Shown piece by piece: positions 7,683 to 39,869 of a stretch of 64,000 bases of DNA. The stretch comes from a virus. Its lineage: Duplodnaviria; Caudoviricetes. The translations under genes and the position numbers were made by a program. The stretch is taken from positions 29,019-93,018 of the IMG/VR virus record IMGVR_UViG_3300032038_000043; one strand, written 5' to 3'. Under the pieces are notes generated by a model, which was not told where the DNA came from, ran no database searches, and saw only the letters and a list, made by a program, of their open reading frames with translations. Within the stretch, counting starts at the first letter, position 1. Every line of letters starts with the position of its first letter.

Positions 7683-7771
7683 GGAAGGCACCCGCAGACG
7701 GCGTGCGGAACTGTCTTGAAAACAGCAGGTCGCAGAGATGCGGCCCGGGGGTTCGACTCCCTCGCCTTCCG
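7683..7771 (+). tRNA. tRNA-Ser(TGA) with atypical D arm
   Basis: GGAAGGC/GCCTTCC acceptor stem, CTGT-CTTGAAA-ACAG anticodon arm, long variable arm, GGTTCGACTCC T loop, G73. Confidence 0.85.
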
Positions 7772-7833
7772 CCTCATAGAGCATGCTTGCCGACAACGCG
7801 CCGCCTGCGGCGCTTCCAACGTGGATAGGCAAC

Positions 7834-33757: not shown

Positions 33758-33848
33758 TGGTGGGGGCCCTGGGAGTTGAACCCAGCTGCAAGTCTCCTCG
33801 CACTCTCCGGTTATGAGCCGGGGCCCGTATCCGCTGGGGCAGACCCCC
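33758..33848 (-). tRNA. tRNA with CAT anticodon (Ile2/Met-like) and an unusual long variable arm
   Basis: Reverse complement: GGGGGTC/GGCCCCC acceptor, CCGG-CTCATAA-CCGG anticodon arm, variable hairpin TGCGAG-GAGA-CTTGCA, CTGGG-TTCAACT-CCCAG, ACCA. Confidence 0.8.
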
Positions 33849-34397: not shown

Positions 34398-34473
34398 GGC
34401 TGGGTAGCTCAGTTGGTAGAGCAGGGGACTGAAAATCCCTGTGTCGGGGGTTCGACTCCCTCCCCAGCCACCA
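34398..34473 (+). tRNA. tRNA-Phe(GAA), possible attP core
   Basis: Canonical cloverleaf GGCTGGG...GGGGA-CTGAAAA-TCCCT...CCCAGCC ACCA, 73 bp upstream of the integrase. Confidence 0.93.
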
Positions 34474-34546
34474 TTTGCGTCCTTACGTCACCATGATGTG
34501 ACCTCCTTTCCGATAGTAAAATCGTTGATGTTCGTCGGCGAACAAC

Positions 34547-35458
34547 GTGCAGTTCGACGAATACTGCCAAGAGTGGTGCGAGAACCTCAAGTCGATGGGC
34601 TCCGTGGAGCCGTCGACGGTCGACGACTACCGAAAGTCGCTCGTCGCGTGGCAAGACCTTGCCAAAATCGAGCTCGAGGACGTGTCGAGACGCCAAATCG
34701 AGGCCTCGATGCGCAAGATGCTGGCCGAAGGGCGCATCCCGAGCACCGTTCGCAAGCGTCTGGTCACCATCAGGCACCTCTTTGACGACGCCGTGGCCTA
34801 CGGTGACGTCCAAAGCAACCCTTGCGACGGAATCAGGAGCCCGAAGCAGCGGAAGTCGTGCAAAAACTACCTCCCAGTCGAGGAAAGGGAGCGTCTGAAG
34901 GCCAGAATCGCGTCCTCGAACCTCCAAATCACCGTCGCGGCGGCAATCGCGCTCTATTCTGGGCTCCGAGAGGCCGAAATCTGCGCCCTGAGGGCCTCGG
35001 ACGTCAATCTGGAGGCCAAAATCGGTTGGGTAAGGCGCTCGATAGGCCGCGACAACGGAAAAACGTACCTGAAGGACGTCAAAAACGGCCATTTTCGCGA
35101 CTTTCCCATCCCAGAGCCGCTCGCGATGGCTCTTGGTCGTTGGATTGACGCAAATTCGGTGCGCGGGAACGCGTTCTTGCTCACTGGTACCGAAAAATGG
35201 GCCGACCCAGCCATCCTGGGCAAGAAATGGTCGTCGTTGTGCGAGCTGGAGGGCTTCGAGGGCGTCTTGGGCAAGGCCCCGACGTTCCACGACCTCCGTC
35301 ACACCTACGCGACCGTCGCGATAGCCTCTGGGGTCGACGTGAAGACCGTTTCGAGCGTCCTCGGGCACTCGTCGGCGGCCATGACGCTCGACGTGTACGC
35401 CGTCGCCGACCCAGTTGCCAAGAGGATGTCCGCGGAGGTCATGGCGAGCTCGATTTAG
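34547..35458 (+). CDS. Tyrosine recombinase / integrase
   Basis: GLREAEICAL (R), FHDLRHTYAT (HxxR), LGHSS, TLDVYA (Y). Confidence 0.92.
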   Translation: MQFDEYCQEWCENLKSMGSVEPSTVDDYRKSLVAWQDLAKIELEDVSRRQIEASMRKMLAEGRIPSTVRKRLVTIRHLFDDAVAYGDVQSNPCDGIRSPKQRKSCKNYLPVEERERLKARIASSNLQITVAAAIALYSGLREAEICALRASDVNLEAKIGWVRRSIGRDNGKTYLKDVKNGHFRDFPIPEPLAMALGRWIDANSVRGNAFLLTGTEKWADPAILGKKWSSLCELEGFEGVLGKAPTFHDLRHTYATVAIASGVDVKTVSSVLGHSSAAMTLDVYAVADPVAKRMSAEVMASSI

Positions 35459-35780: not shown

Positions 35781-36215
35781 TTGAGGGCCCGTGACGTCTT
35801 CAACGAGGCACGCGAAGCGCGTATCCGCATAGACGAGCTGCAGGAGCGCTCGCTCATGATGCACGAGCGCATCGGCATACAGGCGAGGGCCATGCAGCCC
35901 GTCGCATCCTCTACCTCCGACCCGATGAGGAAGGTCGACGACCTCATTGACTGGGAAGTCGACGAGTACGACGCAATCATGACCGCATCAAGGGCGGCGC
36001 TCGACGAGGCCGACGTCCTCGTCAGAGGGATGAGGGCCATGGGCTACCCAGACGCGGCCACGGCACTCAGGATGTACTACATGGACGCCATGGAGCTCAG
36101 CGACGTGTCGCAGCGCGTCGGCCACAGCAAGGAGCTTGTGCAAATGATGCTCGACGCCGCCCTGTCGTTCATAGACGAAGTGGGAATCGCGAAGGTCAAG
36201 GAGGCAGGCCGATGA
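35781..36215 (+). CDS. RinA/ArpU-like transcriptional activator
   Basis: Helical N-terminus and a sigma region 4-like C-terminus (LRMYYMD......VSQRVGHS.......DAAL). Confidence 0.55.
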   Translation: MRARDVFNEAREARIRIDELQERSLMMHERIGIQARAMQPVASSTSDPMRKVDDLIDWEVDEYDAIMTASRAALDEADVLVRGMRAMGYPDAATALRMYYMDAMELSDVSQRVGHSKELVQMMLDAALSFIDEVGIAKVKEAGR

Positions 36216-36394
36216 CGAAGCTGCAGGAACACCTCGACAAGCGCGGCATGTCCAGGTCGGCGCTGTCACGCCTCACCGGCATACAGCTGAAGACCATATC
36301 GGCGCTCTGCGAGGGTCGCAGGGGAGGCCGCATGGACACGTGGCGGCTCATGGCCCAGAAGCTCAGGTGCAACCTTTCGGACATTCTGGAGTAG
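36212..36394 (+). CDS. Cro/C1-type HTH protein
   Basis: LDKRGMSRSALSRLTGIQLKTISAL...L.C.LSDILE. Confidence 0.8.
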   Translation: MTKLQEHLDKRGMSRSALSRLTGIQLKTISALCEGRRGGRMDTWRLMAQKLRCNLSDILE

Positions 36395-36651: not shown

Positions 36652-36722
36652 AGGGGGTTAGCACAAGGGTAGTGCGACGGTCTCCAAAACCGCTGATGAT
36701 GGTTCAAGTCCTTCACCTCCTG
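36652..36722 (+). tRNA. tRNA-Trp(CCA)
   Basis: AGGGGGT/ACCTCCT acceptor, CGGT-CTCCAAA-ACCG anticodon arm, GGTTCAAGTCC T loop. Confidence 0.85.
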
Positions 36723-36727
36723 CCTAT

Positions 36728-36803
36728 CGCGGATTGGTAGCAGTGGTAGCTCGCCGGCCCCATAAGCCGGAGGTCACGGGTTCGAGTCCCGTATCCGCCA
36801 CCA
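36728..36803 (+). tRNA. Initiator-like tRNA-Met(CAT)
   Basis: CGCGGAT/ATCCGCC acceptor with a 1:72 mismatch, CCGGC-CCCATAA-GCCGG anticodon arm, ACGGG-TTCGAGT-CCCGT, ACCA. Confidence 0.85.
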
Positions 36804-37012
36804 GACCACCTCGGCGGCACGCGCTCACTCCTTCCGGCGCGTGCCGCGTTTTTGTACACACTGGCGTGTACAATCTTGCCCAAGGATGCCCCTCCCGCCG
36901 TTGCCGCGGCAGTCGCCCAGTTCGTCTAGCCAGCGAGCGTGGCTCTTCTTTTATGTCCTCTGACCTGCGCTTTCACACGTCGTACATATTTGAGAAGTTT
37001 CAATAATGATGT

Positions 37013-37042
37013 TTGCCATCCTGTGTACATTTAGGATGGCAA
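37013..37042. promoter_or_regulatory. Perfect inverted repeat (operator-like) overlapping a probable -10 of the Y-RNA/Ro60 unit
   Basis: TTGCCATCCT-N10-AGGATGGCAA. TAGGAT at 37032-37037 lies about 6 nt before the first ncRNA. Confidence 0.55.
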
Positions 37043-37170
37043 GGGCAAGGGGAGAGCCGCAGGCGCGAGCTACTTCGCTAAATGGTTTAGCAATTACGCT
37101 GAAAACGTAATCTTGCGGTTCAAGTCCGTTATTTTACCGCTCACGTCGACCATAGCCTCCCCAACCCCCA
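37043..37170 (+). ncRNA. Y-RNA-like ncRNA 1 with a tRNA-Phe-like D/anticodon/T cassette
   Basis: Scaffold GGGGAG-A-GC-CGCA-GGCG-C-GAGC-TACTTC...GCTC-A-CGTC-GACCATA-GC-CTCCCC. Inside: GCTA-AATGGTT-TAGC, ATTACG-CTGAAAA-CGTAAT, GCGG-TTCAAGT-CCGT. Adjacent to Ro60. Confidence 0.8.
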
Positions 37171-37185
37171 AGCCAGCTGAAACGC

Positions 37186-37336
37186 AGGGAGATGGGGAGA
37201 GCCGCAGACGCGTCTTACTTCGCATTCGGGGCGAGAGGTCTCAGGTTCAAATCCTGAAGGAGCCGACATACGGCTTTTTAGCTCAGCGGGAGAGCGCTTA
37301 AACGTAGACACGTCGACCATCGCCTCCCCGTCCCCT
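37186..37336 (+). ncRNA. Y-RNA-like ncRNA 2 with a circularly permuted (YrlA-type) tRNA module
   Basis: Same scaffold. Cassette order is anticodon-like hairpin, T arm (TCAGG-TTCAAAT-CCTGA), closed acceptor-like hairpin (AGGAGCCG-ACATA-CGGCTTTT), then TA and the D arm (GCTC-AGCGGGA-GAGC). Confidence 0.85.
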
Positions 37337-37345
37337 TACGTAGAT

Positions 37346-37484
37346 GCACCGCCCGATGCCGAGCCGCAGCCGCGTCTTACTTCGCCCAGTTGGTAGGGCA
37401 CCCGACTAGTAATCAGGCTGTCGTTGGTTCGATTCCAACAGTTTCCAGACACGGCGACCATTGCCGGTGTCGGGCGGTGCTCCA
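37346..37484 (+). ncRNA. Y-RNA-like ncRNA 3 with a tRNA-Thr-like D/anticodon/T cassette
   Basis: 16-bp closing stem GCACCGCCCGATGCCG/CGGTGTCGGGCGGTGC and the same scaffold. Inside: GCCC-AGTTGGTA-GGGC, CCCGA-CTAGTAA-TCAGG, GTTGG-TTCGATT-CCAAC. Ends TCCA. Confidence 0.8.
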
Positions 37485-37500
37485 AGAGGACGGGGGAGAC

Positions 37501-38946
37501 ATGGCAAGCCACAACAAGCCCGCGGCTGACAGCCGCAAGACCACGAACATCAGTGGCCACGCCGCCTACAGGCTTGACGACAAGGTCAAGCTTGCGACGA
37601 TGGCGCTCACCACCATGCTCGGCGAGCCCAAGTACTATGGCGACAACACCGACGAGCTCGTCAAGCTCGCCGAGCAGGTGGCTGGGCAGGACGGCGAGTT
37701 CGTAGCCAAGCTGGCGGTCTGGGCTCGTTGCGAAGGTAACATGCGCTCCGTCTCCCATGCGCTCCTCGCTGTCGTCTCCCACGCCAACCACGGCACCGAG
37801 TACGTCCGCAAGGCCGTGCGCAGGGTGGCGTCGCAGCGTGGCGACGACGGCGTCGAGACGCTCGCCACCTGCAAGGCGCTCTACGGCAAGCCGTTCCCGC
37901 ACGCCGTCATCCGTGGCGTCGGTGACGTCCTCGGCAACATGTCGCCGAACGCCGTCGGCAAGTACCGCCTCAACGAGAAGGCGTTCAAGCTGCGCGACGC
38001 GCTCCGCGTCACCCACCCCGTGCCGAAGAACGGCCGCCTCTCCGACGCCTTCAAGGAGCTCGTCGATGGCGACCTCAAGGCCACCGAGGGGTGGAAGACC
38101 GCGATTCAGGGCGGCCACAACGACGCGGAGACGTGGGACGCGCTCATGGCGAAGGGCGAGCTCGGCTACATGGCCACGCTCCGCAACCTCGTCAACATCG
38201 TCAAGACGGGTGCCGACGTGGACAGGGCGCTGAGCCTCATCGCGGACCCCGACGAGGTCAGGCGCTCCCGCCAGCTACCGTTCCGCTTCTGGAACGCCTA
38301 TAAGTCCCTCAAGGCGAACGGCCTCATGTCAACCAAGGTGGCACGCGCCATCGACTCCGCCCTCCTCGCATCGTGCGACAACGTCGAGAGGCTCCCTGGC
38401 AGGACCGCCGTGCTCATCGACTGCTCCGGCTCCATGAGCCAGACGCTGAGCATAAAGGCGAGCGAGTCGTGCTTCGAGGTCGCCGCGCTGCTCGGTGCCA
38501 TGTTCACGCACATCTCCGACGACGCATGGGTTGCCGTCTTCAGCAACGGCGCTGAGAAGGTCGACCTCATGGGCACCAGCGTGCTCTCCGACGTGTCCGC
38601 CGTGCCGTTCCGTGGCGGCGGGACGGATATGAGGGCTGGCTTCGAGCTGCTGTGCCGCTCTGGCTTCGACGCCGACCGCGTCGTCGTCCTCTCCGACAAC
38701 GAGGTCAACGGCAGGTGGTGGGGCAACGGCAAGGAGGCCGTGCAGGCGGGCCTCGACATGTACCGCAAGGTCGTCGGGCACGACGTGTGGTGCCACGCCA
38801 TCGACCTCGTGGGTTACGGAACCGCCCAGTTCATCGGCCCGAAGGTCAACATCATGGCCGGATGGTCGGACAAGGTCCTTGGCTTCGTCTCCAAGGTCGA
38901 GAACGGCTCCTCCTTCGTCAAGGAAATCGAGGCGATAGCCCTCTAG
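37501..38946 (+). CDS. Ro60/Rsr-like TROVE + vWA RNA-binding protein
   Basis: TTN.SG..AY, KYY, LAVWAR...NMRS, KY...LRDALRVTHPVP, W..L....LGYMATLRNL.NI, RRSRQLPFRF..AY; vWA MIDAS DCSGSM, GGT and LSDNE. GGGGGAG RBS before the ATG at 37501. Confidence 0.92.
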   Translation: MASHNKPAADSRKTTNISGHAAYRLDDKVKLATMALTTMLGEPKYYGDNTDELVKLAEQVAGQDGEFVAKLAVWARCEGNMRSVSHALLAVVSHANHGTEYVRKAVRRVASQRGDDGVETLATCKALYGKPFPHAVIRGVGDVLGNMSPNAVGKYRLNEKAFKLRDALRVTHPVPKNGRLSDAFKELVDGDLKATEGWKTAIQGGHNDAETWDALMAKGELGYMATLRNLVNIVKTGADVDRALSLIADPDEVRRSRQLPFRFWNAYKSLKANGLMSTKVARAIDSALLASCDNVERLPGRTAVLIDCSGSMSQTLSIKASESCFEVAALLGAMFTHISDDAWVAVFSNGAEKVDLMGTSVLSDVSAVPFRGGGTDMRAGFELLCRSGFDADRVVVLSDNEVNGRWWGNGKEAVQAGLDMYRKVVGHDVWCHAIDLVGYGTAQFIGPKVNIMAGWSDKVLGFVSKVENGSSFVKEIEAIAL

Positions 38947-39044
38947 CTACCCACGGTGCCCGCCTCACCGTCCCCCGGGACGGGCACCTCGGTATATCCT
39001 CTCTCAAGTGGCCAGCGCCCCCTGGACAGGCGCTGGCCACGCTC

Positions 39045-39869
39045 CTATGTCGTGATGATGCGGATGAACAGCTCGTTCACGTCGTCCCAAGCGGGGGGCT
39101 CTGGGCACTCGAGCTTACGCGCCATCGACTCGCATTCGGCGATGTTCGACTTGACCCACTCGTCGAGCATCGGGATTCGCTCGTGGATGTCCGTCTCCAT
39201 CCCGTCGCGCTTCCTCTCCAATAGGTCGTCGATGGCCTCGCAGATTGCTTGGTTGTCGACATCTTGGAAGTACTCGTCAAGAAGCTCGTCAAGCGTGAGA
39301 TACGGCATCTCCAGGTTGTCTATGACGTGTCGTGCGGACAGCAGCGCCCTCACGACATAGAGGTACTTCTTCGTCTTGGGCGGCTCGTCCCTCGTGACGC
39401 CGTTGGCGATGCGAAGAAACTCGTTCGCGTTCTCCTTGGCCATCCCGATGTAGTGGAAGGCAAGTGAGCGTGCCTTGAAGCACGTTTCCGCGAGCTCCTC
39501 TATGGCGTGAAGCTTGAACGGGTCGCTGACGACGTAGCGTGGGCAGTCGAGCCACTCCAACGCGGACGGGTTCGACCTGTGGAGCAGGCTTAGGTACTTG
39601 CTCACGTCCCATCCGACTATGTCAAGCATCGTGTCTGGGTGCCAATCGATGGTGTCCTTGCGCTTGTCGAGCCTCAAATAGTCGTAGATTGGCCTCTTGT
39701 AGACGAACCTGACGTCGTAGTCGGAGTTCTCCGAGGCCATTCCCCACGAGCGTGAGCCAGACTCGACCGCGAAGAGCACTTTCACGTTGTTTTCCGACTC
39801 AATCTTCCTAATTTCCTCGTGAATCATCGCCATTTCGTTGTCCGATGGCGTAAAAACGTCATTTGGCAT
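39045..39869 (-). CDS. Pol-beta superfamily nucleotidyltransferase, RlaP/YcgL-like
   Basis: VLFAVESGSRSWGMASENSDYDVRFVY (GSx9DxD), D.VGWD..K...L..SNP...EWL, KKYLYVVR. Confidence 0.88.
   Translation of the reverse strand: MPNDVFTPSDNEMAMIHEEIRKIESENNVKVLFAVESGSRSWGMASENSDYDVRFVYKRPIYDYLRLDKRKDTIDWHPDTMLDIVGWDVSKYLSLLHRSNPSALEWLDCPRYVVSDPFKLHAIEELAETCFKARSLAFHYIGMAKENANEFLRIANGVTRDEPPKTKKYLYVVRALLSARHVIDNLEMPYLTLDELLDEYFQDVDNQAICEAIDDLLERKRDGMETDIHERIPMLDEWVKSNIAECESMARKLECPEPPAWDDVNELFIRIITT

What the first reader, a model, noticed from the sequence alone, without database searches (positions are those of the whole stretch)
37043..37484. Three tandem Y-RNA-like RNAs: one scaffold, three interchangeable tRNA-mimic cassettes, upstream of phage Ro60
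Seen in sequence: three units of about 130-150 nt share the architecture closing stem - bulged A - GC - CGCA - stem with an invariant C.A mismatch - TACTTC - [cassette] - stem - GACCATN - GC - closing stem. The stems covary between copies (GGCG/CGTC, GACG/CGTC, GCCG/CGGC; GAGC/GCTC vs GTCT/AGAC; a quite different closing stem in unit 3), while the loops stay invariant, as expected for a protein-binding RNA. The cassettes differ. Unit 1 has D, anticodon (GAA, Phe) and T arms. Unit 3 has D, anticodon (AGT in a tRNA-Thr-like arm) and T arms. Unit 2 is permuted (anticodon-like hairpin, T, closed acceptor, D). Established: bacterial Ro60 (Rsr) genes sit next to Y RNAs; YrlA RNAs carry a permuted T/acceptor/D tRNA-like domain; some phages encode them. 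Inference: units 1 and 3 have the opposite topology, with the Ro-binding stem replacing the acceptor stem and intact anticodon loops displayed. I do not recognise this as a described Y RNA class. The array could programme one Ro60 with different tRNA decoys or tethers, for example to bait host anticodon nucleases or to recruit PNPase or repair enzymes.
Basis: partly seen in the sequence, partly recalled or inferred. Interest (0 to 1): 0.92.

Follow-up and report, generated by a model that had tools for sequence, protein, structure and literature searches.

The report
Phage Y RNAs displaying tRNA anticodons
A 93-kb uncultured phage encodes, just upstream of its Ro60 gene, three small RNAs that share one Ro60-type "handle" but carry different tRNA look-alike modules with authentic anticodon loops; this is a new variant of the known bacterial/phage Y RNAs and hints that they act on anticodon-reading proteins.

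Summary
Window 37043-37484 holds three tandem 115-140-nt units sharing one scaffold: closing stem, bulged A, GC, CGCA loop, 4 bp, invariant C.A, 4 bp, TACTTC, module, GACCAUN. They lie 17 nt upstream of a TROVE/Ro60 gene in a complete 93-kb phage genome.

In eight related phages, 15/43, 13/37 and 23/33 pairs show compensatory changes. The scaffold is a YrlA-type handle: GCCGCAG is a variant of GNCGAAN0-1G, followed by the conserved YUAY.

Unit 2 is a divergent YrlA (Rfam 21.9 bits, gathering score 69). Its "V" hairpin sits exactly where an anticodon arm would. Units 1 and 3 carry non-permuted D-anticodon-T modules with the handle replacing the acceptor stem. This orientation was previously noted only, in degenerate form, for D. 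radiodurans Yrn1. Unit 3 ends stem-N-CCA in 9/9 homologues.

Modules and anticodon arms are swapped between near-identical phages. In about 40 related loci the loops follow tRNA rules: U33, and G37 only after G36.

Function is untested. I favour Ro60 adaptors or decoys for anticodon-reading proteins.

Verdict: new variant of a known kind, interest 0.7. Earlier notes of this scan (unchecked) report similar handle-plus-anticodon-arm RNAs beside Ro60-like genes in other phages.

The parts
36652..36803 (+). Phage tRNA-Trp(CCA) and tRNA-Met(CAU) immediately upstream of the array
   Evidence: ARAGORN; Rfam tRNA 57.3 and 42.5 bits
36814..36853 (+). Terminator-like hairpin (11-bp G+C-rich stem, 12-nt loop, T run). 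It separates the tRNA genes from the Y RNA array, so the array probably has its own promoter.
   Evidence: Read from the sequence. It is conserved in L008-L012. The consensus scan does not list it because its loop exceeds that scan's 8-nt limit.
37026..37031 (+). Possible -10 hexamer (TACATT), 12 nt before unit 1. Relatives have TATAGT, TACATT, TACACT or TAGAGT at the same distance. This is an inference only.
   Evidence: Sequence comparison of the upstream regions. The sigma-70 consensus scan found nothing.
37043..37167 (+). Y RNA unit 1 (core 37049-37162). YrlA-type handle plus a non-permuted tRNA-like module: D arm 37077-37091, anticodon arm 37093-37111 (loop CUGAAAA, Phe-like GAA), T arm 37115-37129. 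It has an A15/U48 Levitt-type combination.
   Evidence: (R1 99.7 bits)
37194..37329 (+). Y RNA unit 2. Same handle plus a complete circularly permuted tRNA: anticodon-arm-like hairpin 37219-37235 (loop AUUCGGG), 5-nt variable loop, T arm 37241-37257, closed 7-bp acceptor hairpin 37258-37278, UA, D arm 37281-37295.
   Evidence: Rfam YrlA 21.9 bits, full length, below the gathering score of 69. Covariation in 13/37 pairs with 99.5% of cells paired. RNAalifold recovers the fold.
37346..37484 (+). Y RNA unit 3. 16-bp closing stem plus handle plus a non-permuted tRNA-like module: 3-bp mini-acceptor ACU/AGU, D arm 37384-37399, anticodon arm 37401-37417 (loop CUAGUAA, anticodon AGU), T arm 37423-37439. 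The 3' end is stem-U-CCA (37481-37484).
   Evidence: Rfam tRNA 42.4 bits, model 5-66. Fold z = -4.5. Covariation in 15/43 pairs. N-CCA is conserved in 9/9 homologues.
37501..38946 (+). Ro60 (TROVE + vWA) gene. The start codon lies 17 nt after the CCA of unit 3 and is preceded by GGGGGAG.
   Evidence: Pfam TROVE E = 1.6e-16; vWA_Ro60 27.3 bits against a cut-off of 27.7. The best solved relative is Thermus phage phiLo Ro60 (9KOP/9L5Y), E = 6.5e-33 over the full length.
39045..39869 (-). RlaP-family nucleotidyltransferase, convergent with Ro60. This neighbourhood is conserved in relatives whose Ro60 is 77-96% identical.
   Evidence: Pfam PF10127 E = 2.5e-66; neighbourhoods

Best explanation
The three units are phage Y RNAs, meaning partner RNAs of the Ro60 protein encoded directly downstream.

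How they are probably made (inferred): they are transcribed together with the Ro60 mRNA from a promoter behind the tRNA terminator and then cut out. Unit 3 probably matures like a tRNA, because its closing helix ends in N-CCA.

How they are built (shown): each RNA has two parts.
- The constant part is a YrlA-type handle: closing stem, bulged A, GC pair, CGCA//GACCAUN internal loop, 4 bp, C.A mismatch, 4 bp, UAC. I infer that this is what docks on Ro60.
- The variable part is a tRNA-derived module that keeps the elbow-forming nucleotides (U8, A14, G18G19, the 15-48 pair, the UUCRANU T loop) and an authentic 7-nt anticodon loop.

The module is plugged into the handle in two ways. In unit 2 the whole tRNA is circularly permuted, opened between positions 26 and 27, and has a closed acceptor. 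In units 1 and 3 the tRNA is not permuted and the handle takes the place of the acceptor stem.

Proposed mechanism (inferred): the RNAs act as adaptors that present tRNA elbows plus specific anticodon arms on a Ro60 platform. This would let tRNA-binding proteins that read the anticodon loop be captured, titrated or brought to Ro60 and its nuclease or repair partners. The most likely such proteins are host anticodon-loop nucleases of anti-phage defence. Fast exchange of the anticodon arm would retune which protein is engaged.

How sure I am of each step: about 0.9 that these are structured Ro60-partner RNAs, about 0.5 for the anticodon-specific adaptor role, and about 0.3 for the nuclease-decoy version. 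The single figure given is a blend of these.
For: Identity as Y RNAs:
- The units are on the same strand as, and 17 nt upstream of, a TROVE/vWA gene. That gene's closest solved relative is phage phiLo Ro60, which binds two upstream Yrl RNAs and host PNPase (PMC12135203).
- The handle motif GCCGCAG differs at one position from the published GNCGAAN0-1G. Relatives carry the canonical GCCGAAG (L064) and intermediate CGUAG forms.
- The conserved YUAY follows the handle, as in YrlA.
- Unit 2 aligns end to end with Rfam YrlA.
- The handle occurs nowhere else in the 93-kb genome.
- Arrays of such units precede Ro60 in every relative examined, from 28% to 96% protein identity.

Structure:
- Compensatory changes occur in 15/43 pairs (unit 3), 13/37 pairs (unit 2) and 23/33 pairs (all D-AC-T units). 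Slid-partner controls give 0-4.
- The mini-acceptor ACU/AGU becomes UCA/UGA in L010 unit 1.
- The Levitt pair switches between A15-U48 and G15-C48.
- RNAalifold independently recovers the handle and the arms.

Modularity:
- The orthologous unit 1 of L010 and L012 has a 98%-identical handle but only a 61%-identical module.
- In three phages that are 96% identical, 8 of the 13 variable columns fall in the 17-nt anticodon arm (Fisher p = 9e-6). The loops are CUUGUAA, CUGGUAA and CUAGGGA.
- In a second pair of phages, 3 of 8 differences fall in the 7-nt loop (p = 0.004).

Authentic anticodon loops:
- In the roughly 38 loops I tabulated by eye from the arrays, nearly all have U at position 33 and a purine at position 37.
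- G37 occurs only after G36 (UGG, AGG, CGG, UCG); A37 follows U36 or A36.

Context:
- Phage tRNA genes lie upstream.
- A convergent RlaP gene lies downstream. RlaP enzymes add 1-2 nt to damaged RNA 3' ends and restore over-trimmed tRNAs (bioRxiv 10.64898/2025.12.29.696909; PMC7824862).
- The bacterial rsr-yrlBA-rtcBA operon is induced by tRNA cleavage, and YrlA has been proposed as a competitive inhibitor of an anticodon nuclease (PMC7790460).
Against: - There are no transcript, binding or processing data for this phage or any close relative. Everything beyond structure and synteny is inference.
- Unit 2 scores far below Rfam's YrlA gathering score (21.9 against 69). Units 1 and 3 do not match YrlA at all.
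- Within the window's own clade the anticodon changes in unit 3 are single-base steps (UGU to AGU or UUU). With nine sequences they cannot be told apart from drift.
- Unit 1 lacks the mini-acceptor pairing.
- The anticodons seen most often (GUU, GCU, NGU, NGG) only partly overlap the classic anticodon-nuclease targets that I know of.
- No RtcB or other RNA ligase is encoded by the phage.
- Salmonella YrlA was not cleaved by the SOS-induced anticodon nuclease. This is compatible with an inhibitor role but proves nothing here.
Confidence: 0.55

Rival explanations
1. Generic RYPER-type tethers. In this view the Y RNAs only bridge phage Ro60 to host PNPase or another exonuclease to degrade structured RNA. 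The tRNA-like modules serve folding, stability or nuclease docking. The anticodon loops are inherited baggage that drifts neutrally.
For: D. radiodurans Y RNA tethers Rsr to PNPase. Thermus phage phiLo Ro60, Yrl RNAs and host PNPase form a ternary complex (PMC12135203; PMC7790460). phiLo Ro60 is the closest solved relative. Anticodon changes in the window's clade are single-base steps.
Against: Neutral drift does not explain three things: why the loops keep U33 and the position-36/37 coupling across 28-96% Ro60 identity; why changes cluster in the anticodon arm (p = 9e-6 and 0.004); and why whole arms are replaced together with compensating stem changes.
Confidence: 0.22
2. Sponges or substrates for tRNA maturation and charging enzymes. 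Candidates are position-37 modifiers such as the t6A, m1G37 and i6A enzymes, TruB, Dus, CCA-adding enzyme, RNase P and aminoacyl-tRNA synthetases. The effect would be to reprogramme host translation or stress signalling rather than to counter nucleases.
For: YrlA is modified by TruB and DusA. M. smegmatis YrlA is cut by RNase P and receives CCA (PMC4201824). The loops here carry the usual sequence contexts U36-A37-A38, A36-A37-A38 and G36-G37 (that these are modification determinants is my own knowledge). Unit 3 has a tRNA-like N-CCA end.
Against: Housekeeping enzymes are not expected to drive rapid swapping of anticodon arms between near-identical phages. Nothing here tests modification.
Confidence: 0.12
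3. The units are not Ro60 partners. The shared stems would be processing or stability cassettes (for example RNase III or RNase P sites) around degenerate or spare tRNA genes of a phage tRNA cluster. Some units might be matured into working tRNAs.
For: The arrays are interleaved with genuine tRNAs in many relatives. One relative has a complete tRNA with a 7-bp acceptor and CCA nested in a handle (L032 865-977). Unit 3 ends in N-CCA.
Against: Units 1 and 3 have only 0-3 acceptor pairs, and ARAGORN rejects them. The handle carries the published Ro60-associated motif and YUAY. It is found only next to Ro60 in this genome and in all relatives sampled.
Confidence: 0.05

Closest known systems
YrlA RNAs of bacteria and mycobacteriophages (Rfam RF02553; Chen et al. 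2014, PMC4201824; Wang et al. 2018, bioRxiv 10.1101/312249)
   Same: Encoded just upstream of Ro60 on the same strand, often in several copies. The 5'/3' stem carries a GNCGAAN0-1G-type motif followed by the conserved YUAY. The tRNA-like domain has T arm, closed acceptor stem and D arm. Unit 2 aligns end to end with the model, and many YrlAs have a 'V' hairpin before the T arm.
   Different: All units score below the gathering score (21.9 against 69; relatives reach 28-48 bits). The motif is GCCGCAG. The hairpin before the T arm has a 5-bp stem and a 7-nt loop that obeys anticodon-loop rules, and it sits at positions 27-43 of a tRNA permuted at 26/27; published YrlA is described as lacking an anticodon loop. 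Units 1 and 3 carry the tRNA module in the non-permuted order on the same handle. Unit 3 has an encoded N-CCA 3' end.
Deinococcus radiodurans Yrn1 (Chen et al. 2000, 2013, 2014)
   Same: A Ro60-bound Y RNA whose effector module was modelled in the order D-like region, 'anticodon arm', T arm. That is the same orientation relative to the Ro60-binding stem as units 1 and 3.
   Different: Yrn1 has a 6-nt loop, no clear D arm and no V region. Its Ro60-binding helix resembles metazoan Y RNAs rather than YrlA, and it was considered an independent lineage. Here the D-AC-T module is a nearly complete tRNA body (Rfam tRNA 42 bits) on a YrlA-type handle, side by side with a YrlA-type paralogue.
Thermus phage phiLo Ro60 with Yrl1/Yrl2 (PMC12135203; PDB 9KOP, 9L5Y)
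   Same: A phage Ro60, the closest solved relative (E = 6.5e-33), with Y-like RNAs encoded directly upstream. These have a stem-bulge-stem with a CGAA-type motif. A complex with host PNPase has been shown.
   Different: In the text passages I searched, no tRNA-like or anticodon-bearing module is mentioned for Yrl1/Yrl2. Protein identity is low.
tRNA and other tRNA mimics (tmRNA, plant-virus TLS; permuted tRNA genes of Cyanidioschyzon, the last from my own knowledge)
   Same: Elbow-forming nucleotides, 7-nt anticodon loops, an N-CCA end (unit 3), and circular permutation of the gene order (unit 2).
   Different: There is no 7-bp acceptor stem next to the T arm. The distance from CCA to anticodon is far too long for decoding. 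Nothing suggests aminoacylation or re-ligation into a working tRNA.

Membership tests
Y RNA (Ro60-partner ncRNA, bacterial/phage type) | Encoded next to a Ro60/TROVE gene, usually upstream on the same strand | tested here: met
   Unit 3 ends 17 nt before the TROVE gene's start codon. The same arrangement is seen in all relatives sampled.
Y RNA (Ro60-partner ncRNA, bacterial/phage type) | The 5' and 3' ends pair into a stem carrying the conserved Ro60-associated motif GNCGAAN0-1G | tested here: met
   Stems are supported by covariation. The motif is GCCGCAG, one substitution from the published form. Relatives show GCCGAAG, CGUAG and UUGUAG at the same position.
Y RNA (Ro60-partner ncRNA, bacterial/phage type) | Physically bound by Ro60 | not testable with these tools
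   Needs immunoprecipitation or EMSA.
YrlA (Rfam RF02553) | Scores at or above the family's gathering score (69 bits) | tested here: not met
   Unit 2 scores 21.9 bits. Units 1 and 3 give no hit. Relatives' units score 28-48 bits.
YrlA (Rfam RF02553) | Permuted tRNA-like domain in the order T arm, closed acceptor stem, D arm, preceded by YUAY | tested here: met
   Met for unit 2. Units 1 and 3 keep YUAY but have the order D-AC-T, so they do not meet this feature.
YrlA (Rfam RF02553) | No anticodon loop; the Ro60 stem occupies the anticodon-stem position (Wang et al. 2018) | tested here: not met
   All three units carry a 5-6-bp stem with a 7-nt loop of anticodon type. Which helix stacks on the D stem cannot be decided without a 3D structure.
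tRNA (Rfam RF00005) | Cloverleaf with a 7-bp acceptor stem closing the D, anticodon and T arms | tested here: not met
   The unit 3 module scores 42.4 bits but only over model positions 5-66. Unit 1 scores 22.8 bits over positions 10-63. ARAGORN finds no tRNA. Only 0-3 acceptor pairs are present.
Yrn1-type Y RNA (D. radiodurans) | Module order D-like, anticodon-like arm, T arm relative to the Ro60 stem | tested here: met
   Units 1 and 3 have this order.
Yrn1-type Y RNA (D. radiodurans) | Sequence homology to Yrn1 and a metazoan-like Ro60-binding helix | not tested
The handle here is YrlA-like.

The most novel reading that the evidence does not exclude
Phage Ro60 particles are programmable. 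A constant Ro60 handle is combined with hot-swappable tRNA modules whose anticodon arms serve as anticodon-specific baits. The baits would inhibit, sense or redirect host tRNA-targeting immune nucleases, or deliver their damaged products to repair by RlaP. This would be a new RNA-based counter-defence principle, and it would supply the long-missing effector logic for the tRNA-like domain of bacterial Y RNAs.
Probability: 0.25. Interest if true: 0.9.

Novelty: new variant of a known kind. Interest (0 to 1): 0.7.

Why it matters
The partner of the tRNA-like domain of bacterial Y RNAs has been unknown since 2014. The field expects a tRNA-binding protein that recognises the elbow.

This phage clade adds three findings:
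- The domain can be a complete tRNA body with a genuine anticodon loop.
- The same handle accepts the module in at least two topologies.
- The anticodon arm is the fastest-changing part between near-identical phages.

Together these point to anticodon-reading proteins as the relevant partners. They also give concrete, matched RNA pairs (same RNA, different anticodon arm) for pull-down and nuclease-competition experiments. The question of what YrlA-type RNAs do therefore becomes directly testable. If the decoy reading is right, it adds an RNA-based layer to the phage-host conflict over tRNAs.

Tried and rejected
- DNA similarity search of 36800-39000 against 50,697 cultured-phage records found nothing. 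Protein-level Ro60 hits in cultured phages are all below 33% identity, so no annotated relative exists.
- Exact handle-pattern scans found nothing in IMG/VR other than the phage's own record. JGI metagenomes gave one chance hit inside what looks like unrelated G+C-rich protein-coding DNA (L017). Close relatives were reachable only through exact-protein look-ups.
- The idea that TACTTC is an invariant single-stranded protein-binding loop was rejected. In YrlA-type units UUCG is the 5' strand of the anticodon-arm-like hairpin. In unit 3, ACU pairs with AGU, and in L010 unit 1 this covaries to UCA/UGA.
This held only for unit 3 (9/9 homologues). The CCA after unit 1 is not conserved; relatives have CCG or CAC there.
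- RtcB was searched for in the whole phage genome and is absent.
- A sigma-70 promoter scan found nothing. The promoter assignment stays an inference.
- The review PMC10870794 (Sim et al. 2020) is not held. I could not check whether it mentions D-AC-T or anticodon-bearing Y RNAs.
- Four full-text searches returned no paper describing them.
Full report
WHAT IS THERE

The window is part of a complete 93,018-bp uncultured phage genome with direct terminal repeats. The order of features is:
- tRNA-Trp and tRNA-Met (36652-36803)
- a strong terminator-like hairpin (36814-36853)
- three tandem units at 37049-37162, 37194-37329 and 37346-37484
- 17 nt further on, a 481-aa TROVE/vWA protein gene (37501-38946)

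The closest solved relative of that protein is the Ro60 of Thermus phage phiLo (E = 6.5e-33, full length). A convergent RlaP-family nucleotidyltransferase gene follows (39045-39869; Pfam E = 2.5e-66).

A 25-nt pattern from the shared 5' part matches only these three places in the window and none in 100 shuffles. A covariance model of the whole unit finds only these three units, plus genuine tRNAs, in the entire phage genome.

ANATOMY

- Unit 1 carries a D arm, a 6-bp anticodon arm with loop CUGAAAA, and a T arm. Rfam tRNA scores 22.8 bits over model positions 10-63.
- Unit 3 carries a 3-bp mini-acceptor (ACU/AGU), a D arm, an anticodon arm with loop CUAGUAA, a 5-nt variable loop and a T arm. 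Rfam tRNA scores 42.4 bits over positions 5-66.
- Unit 2 carries a 5-bp hairpin with a 7-nt loop, a 5-nt variable loop ending in C, a T arm, a closed 7-bp acceptor hairpin, UA, a D arm and G26. This is a complete tRNA circularly permuted at 26/27. It aligns end to end with Rfam YrlA at 21.9 bits, against a gathering score of 69.

ARAGORN calls none of the three a tRNA. The tRNA tertiary-interaction nucleotides are present: U8, A14, G18G19, the UUCRANU T loop and the 15-48 pair. The 15-48 pair covaries: A15/U48 in unit 1, G15/C48 in units 2 and 3 and in the replaced unit 1 of L010.

COMPARATIVE SUPPORT

The Ro60 protein has hundreds of homologues in metagenomes. I fetched the loci of those at 96, 88, 83, 82, 80, 78, 77, 65 and 58% identity. 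I also fetched 36 IMG/VR loci at 28-45% and 18 genome or MAG loci. Every locus inspected has an array of such units directly upstream of Ro60, often interleaved with real tRNAs.

Pair counts on my structures:

| Set | Pairs with changes on both sides | Cells paired | Slid-partner controls |
|---|---|---|---|
| Unit 3 | 15 of 43 | 93.9% | 0-3 |
| Unit 2 | 13 of 37 | 99.5% | 0-4 |
| All D-AC-T units, aligned to model R1 | 23 of 33 | 97% | 3-4 |

The alignment for the third row is fitted to the model, so that count leans towards the structure. RNAalifold on the plain MAFFT alignments independently recovers the handle and the D and T arms of unit 3, and the full fold of unit 2.

The mini-acceptor ACU/AGU of unit 3 becomes UCA/UGA in L010 unit 1. 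So part of 'TACTTC' is helical in these units.

WHAT THE HANDLE IS

Chen et al. 2014 (PMC4201824) defined YrlA RNAs by four things:
- a GNCGAAN0-1G motif near the 5' end
- a conserved YUAY that starts a variable 'V' region
- T and D arms that flank a closed acceptor-like stem
- location within 4 kb of Ro60 on the same strand, sometimes in several copies, and also in 22 phages

The units here have GCCGCAG, one substitution from that motif. Relatives have GCCGAAG (L064), CGUAG (L063, L015) and UUGUAG (low-GC phages) at the same place. The YUAY is the YUAC of UACUUC. The scaffold is therefore the YrlA-type Ro60 handle, not a new one. The C.A mismatch flanked by two 4-bp helices is also kept in L002, whose Ro60 is 45% identical.

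WHAT IS NEW RELATIVE TO THE LITERATURE I COULD READ

(a) Non-permuted modules on a YrlA handle. Units 1 and 3 carry a D-anticodon-T module with the handle replacing the acceptor stem. Chen et al. noted this orientation only for D. radiodurans Yrn1, with a 6-nt loop, no clear D arm and a different, metazoan-like handle. They regarded it as an independent lineage. Model R1 also picks up D-AC-T units in distant relatives whose Ro60 is 34-39% identical: L032 726-837, L048 1215-1316 and L053 1268-1372. The class is therefore recurrent.

(b) The hairpin before the T arm looks like an anticodon arm. Chen et al. call it 'V' and Wang et al. call it a long variable loop. In this family it has a conserved UUCGN/NCGAG 5-bp stem and a 7-nt loop, followed by a 5-nt variable loop. 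That is exactly the place and shape of an anticodon arm. In the roughly 38 loops I tabulated by eye from YrlA-type, D-AC-T and minimal hairpin-only units:
- nearly all have U33 and a purine at position 37
- G37 occurs only after G36 (UGG, AGG, CGG, UCG)
- A37 follows U36 or A36 (GUU, GCU, UGU, GGU, AGU, UUU, GAU, AAU, GAA, UGA, UCA)

(c) The module and the arm are exchangeable.
- Orthologous unit 1 of the window and of L010 share 98% of the handle but only 61% of the module. The L010 module is closer (72%) to unit 3.
- Three phages from one sample are 96% identical across a YrlA-type unit. Of 13 variable columns, 8 lie in the 17-nt arm (Fisher p = 9e-6). The arm includes a coordinated change of both stem strands, the anticodon and position 37.
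- In a second pair of phages, 3 of 8 differences fall in the 7-nt loop (p = 0.004).
- In the window's own clade the unit 3 loop reads CUAGUAA, CUUGUAA, CUUUUAA, CUGCUAA or a 9-nt loop, on an otherwise 82-94% identical module. With so few sequences this alone is not significant.

(d) Unit 3 ends closing stem-N-CCA in all nine homologues. N varies (U, A, G) and the downstream sequence varies. I found it true for unit 3 but not conserved for unit 1. A tRNA-like end suggests RNase P and CCA-dependent maturation. That would also separate the RNA from the Ro60 mRNA. [quoted passage not shown]

MECHANISM

Shown: structure, synteny, modularity and the tRNA-like rules of the loops.

Inferred: Ro60 binds the handle, and the module presents a tRNA elbow plus a specific anticodon arm.

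I favour an adaptor/decoy role towards anticodon-reading proteins, above all host anticodon nucleases. The reasons are:
- The arm is the hot spot of change.
- The loops are faithful copies of real anticodon loops.
- The locus sits between phage tRNA genes and an RlaP enzyme. RlaP adds 1-2 nt to damaged RNA ends and restores over-trimmed tRNAs.
- The bacterial rsr-yrlBA-rtcBA operon responds to tRNA cleavage. Its authors already considered YrlA a possible competitive inhibitor of an anticodon nuclease.

The main rival is a generic Ro60-Y RNA-PNPase machine, as in D. radiodurans and phage phiLo, with the anticodon loops carried as neutral baggage. Less likely alternatives are titration of tRNA-modifying or charging enzymes, and tRNA-processing cassettes unrelated to Ro60. 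None of these is tested. The phage encodes no RtcB.

NOVELTY AND SCORE

Phage Y RNA arrays next to Ro60, and tRNA mimicry by Y RNAs, are established. The following I found in none of the papers searched:
- the non-permuted, anticodon-bearing topology on a YrlA handle
- the recognition that the 'V' hairpin is an anticodon-arm mimic that follows tRNA rules
- its rapid exchange between near-identical phages
- the N-CCA end of unit 3

I class this as a new variant of a known kind, with interest 0.7.

Earlier AI notes of this scan report handle-plus-anticodon-arm or stem-enclosed tRNA-mimic RNAs beside Ro60-like genes in other phages. I did not check them and they did not affect the score.

The likely host lineage is Coriobacteriia. 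The closest Ro60 sequences found in the bacterial/archaeal genome and MAG contig collection, at 53-55% identity, come from rumen Coriobacteriaceae MAGs.

Noticed in passing
L032:865-977: A complete tRNA (7-bp acceptor, discriminator, CCA; Rfam 60 bits at 883-955) is nested inside a Y-RNA-type handle (5' motif plus UUACUUC before it, matching 3' strand after it). This may be an intermediate between a tRNA gene and a D-AC-T Y RNA.
   Followed up: partly
L054:1256-1401: A 146-nt Rfam 'tRNA' hit has an open acceptor stem, a D arm and a T arm. Its anticodon-arm region is replaced by a closed Ro60-type handle (UGUAUUGUAG ... UUACUUC). This would be the same four-way architecture with the chain break at the acceptor end, a third permutation.
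   Followed up: partly
L044:1250-1370: A unit with the order closed acceptor hairpin, D arm, anticodon-like arm, T arm inside the handle. The break lies between the T arm and the acceptor 3' strand, which is yet another permutation.
   Followed up: partly
L032:726-837; L031:~53-90; L044:~41-80: Some Y RNA anticodon-type loops carry stop-codon-reading triplets: CUA (amber) in L032 and UCA (opal) in L031 and L044.
   Followed up: no
L033:1395-1480; L038:1385-1465; L029:~560-680: Minimal Y RNAs whose only module is an anticodon-type stem-loop (loops CUUUUAA, CUUGUAA, CUGCUAA, UUCGGGA) on the handle.
   Followed up: partly
L008:564-680 (also L007): In the phage whose Ro60 is 96% identical, the unit 3 anticodon loop is expanded to 9 nt (CUUUCAGAC) on an otherwise conserved module.
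   Followed up: no
window 37403/37415 (alignment A1 columns 59/73): The middle pair of the unit 3 anticodon stem is a conserved non-Watson-Crick C.A or A.C in 7 of 9 homologues.
   Followed up: partly
window 37015-37040: An 8-bp inverted repeat (GCCATCCT ... AGGATGGC) overlaps the putative -10 region of the Y RNA array. It is kept in L008 but not in L009-L012. It could be an operator or a 5' hairpin.
   Followed up: no
window 33758-33848 and 7683-7773: Two 91-nt tRNAs, Met(CAU) and Ser(UGA), are called by ARAGORN but are not listed by Rfam at its gathering score.
   Followed up: no
window 34398-35458: tRNA-Phe(GAA) is immediately followed by a tyrosine-integrase gene (Pfam Phage_integrase E = 1.4e-20), and an HTH gene lies at 36212-36394. 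This suggests a temperate lifestyle with a possible tRNA-linked attachment site.
   Followed up: no
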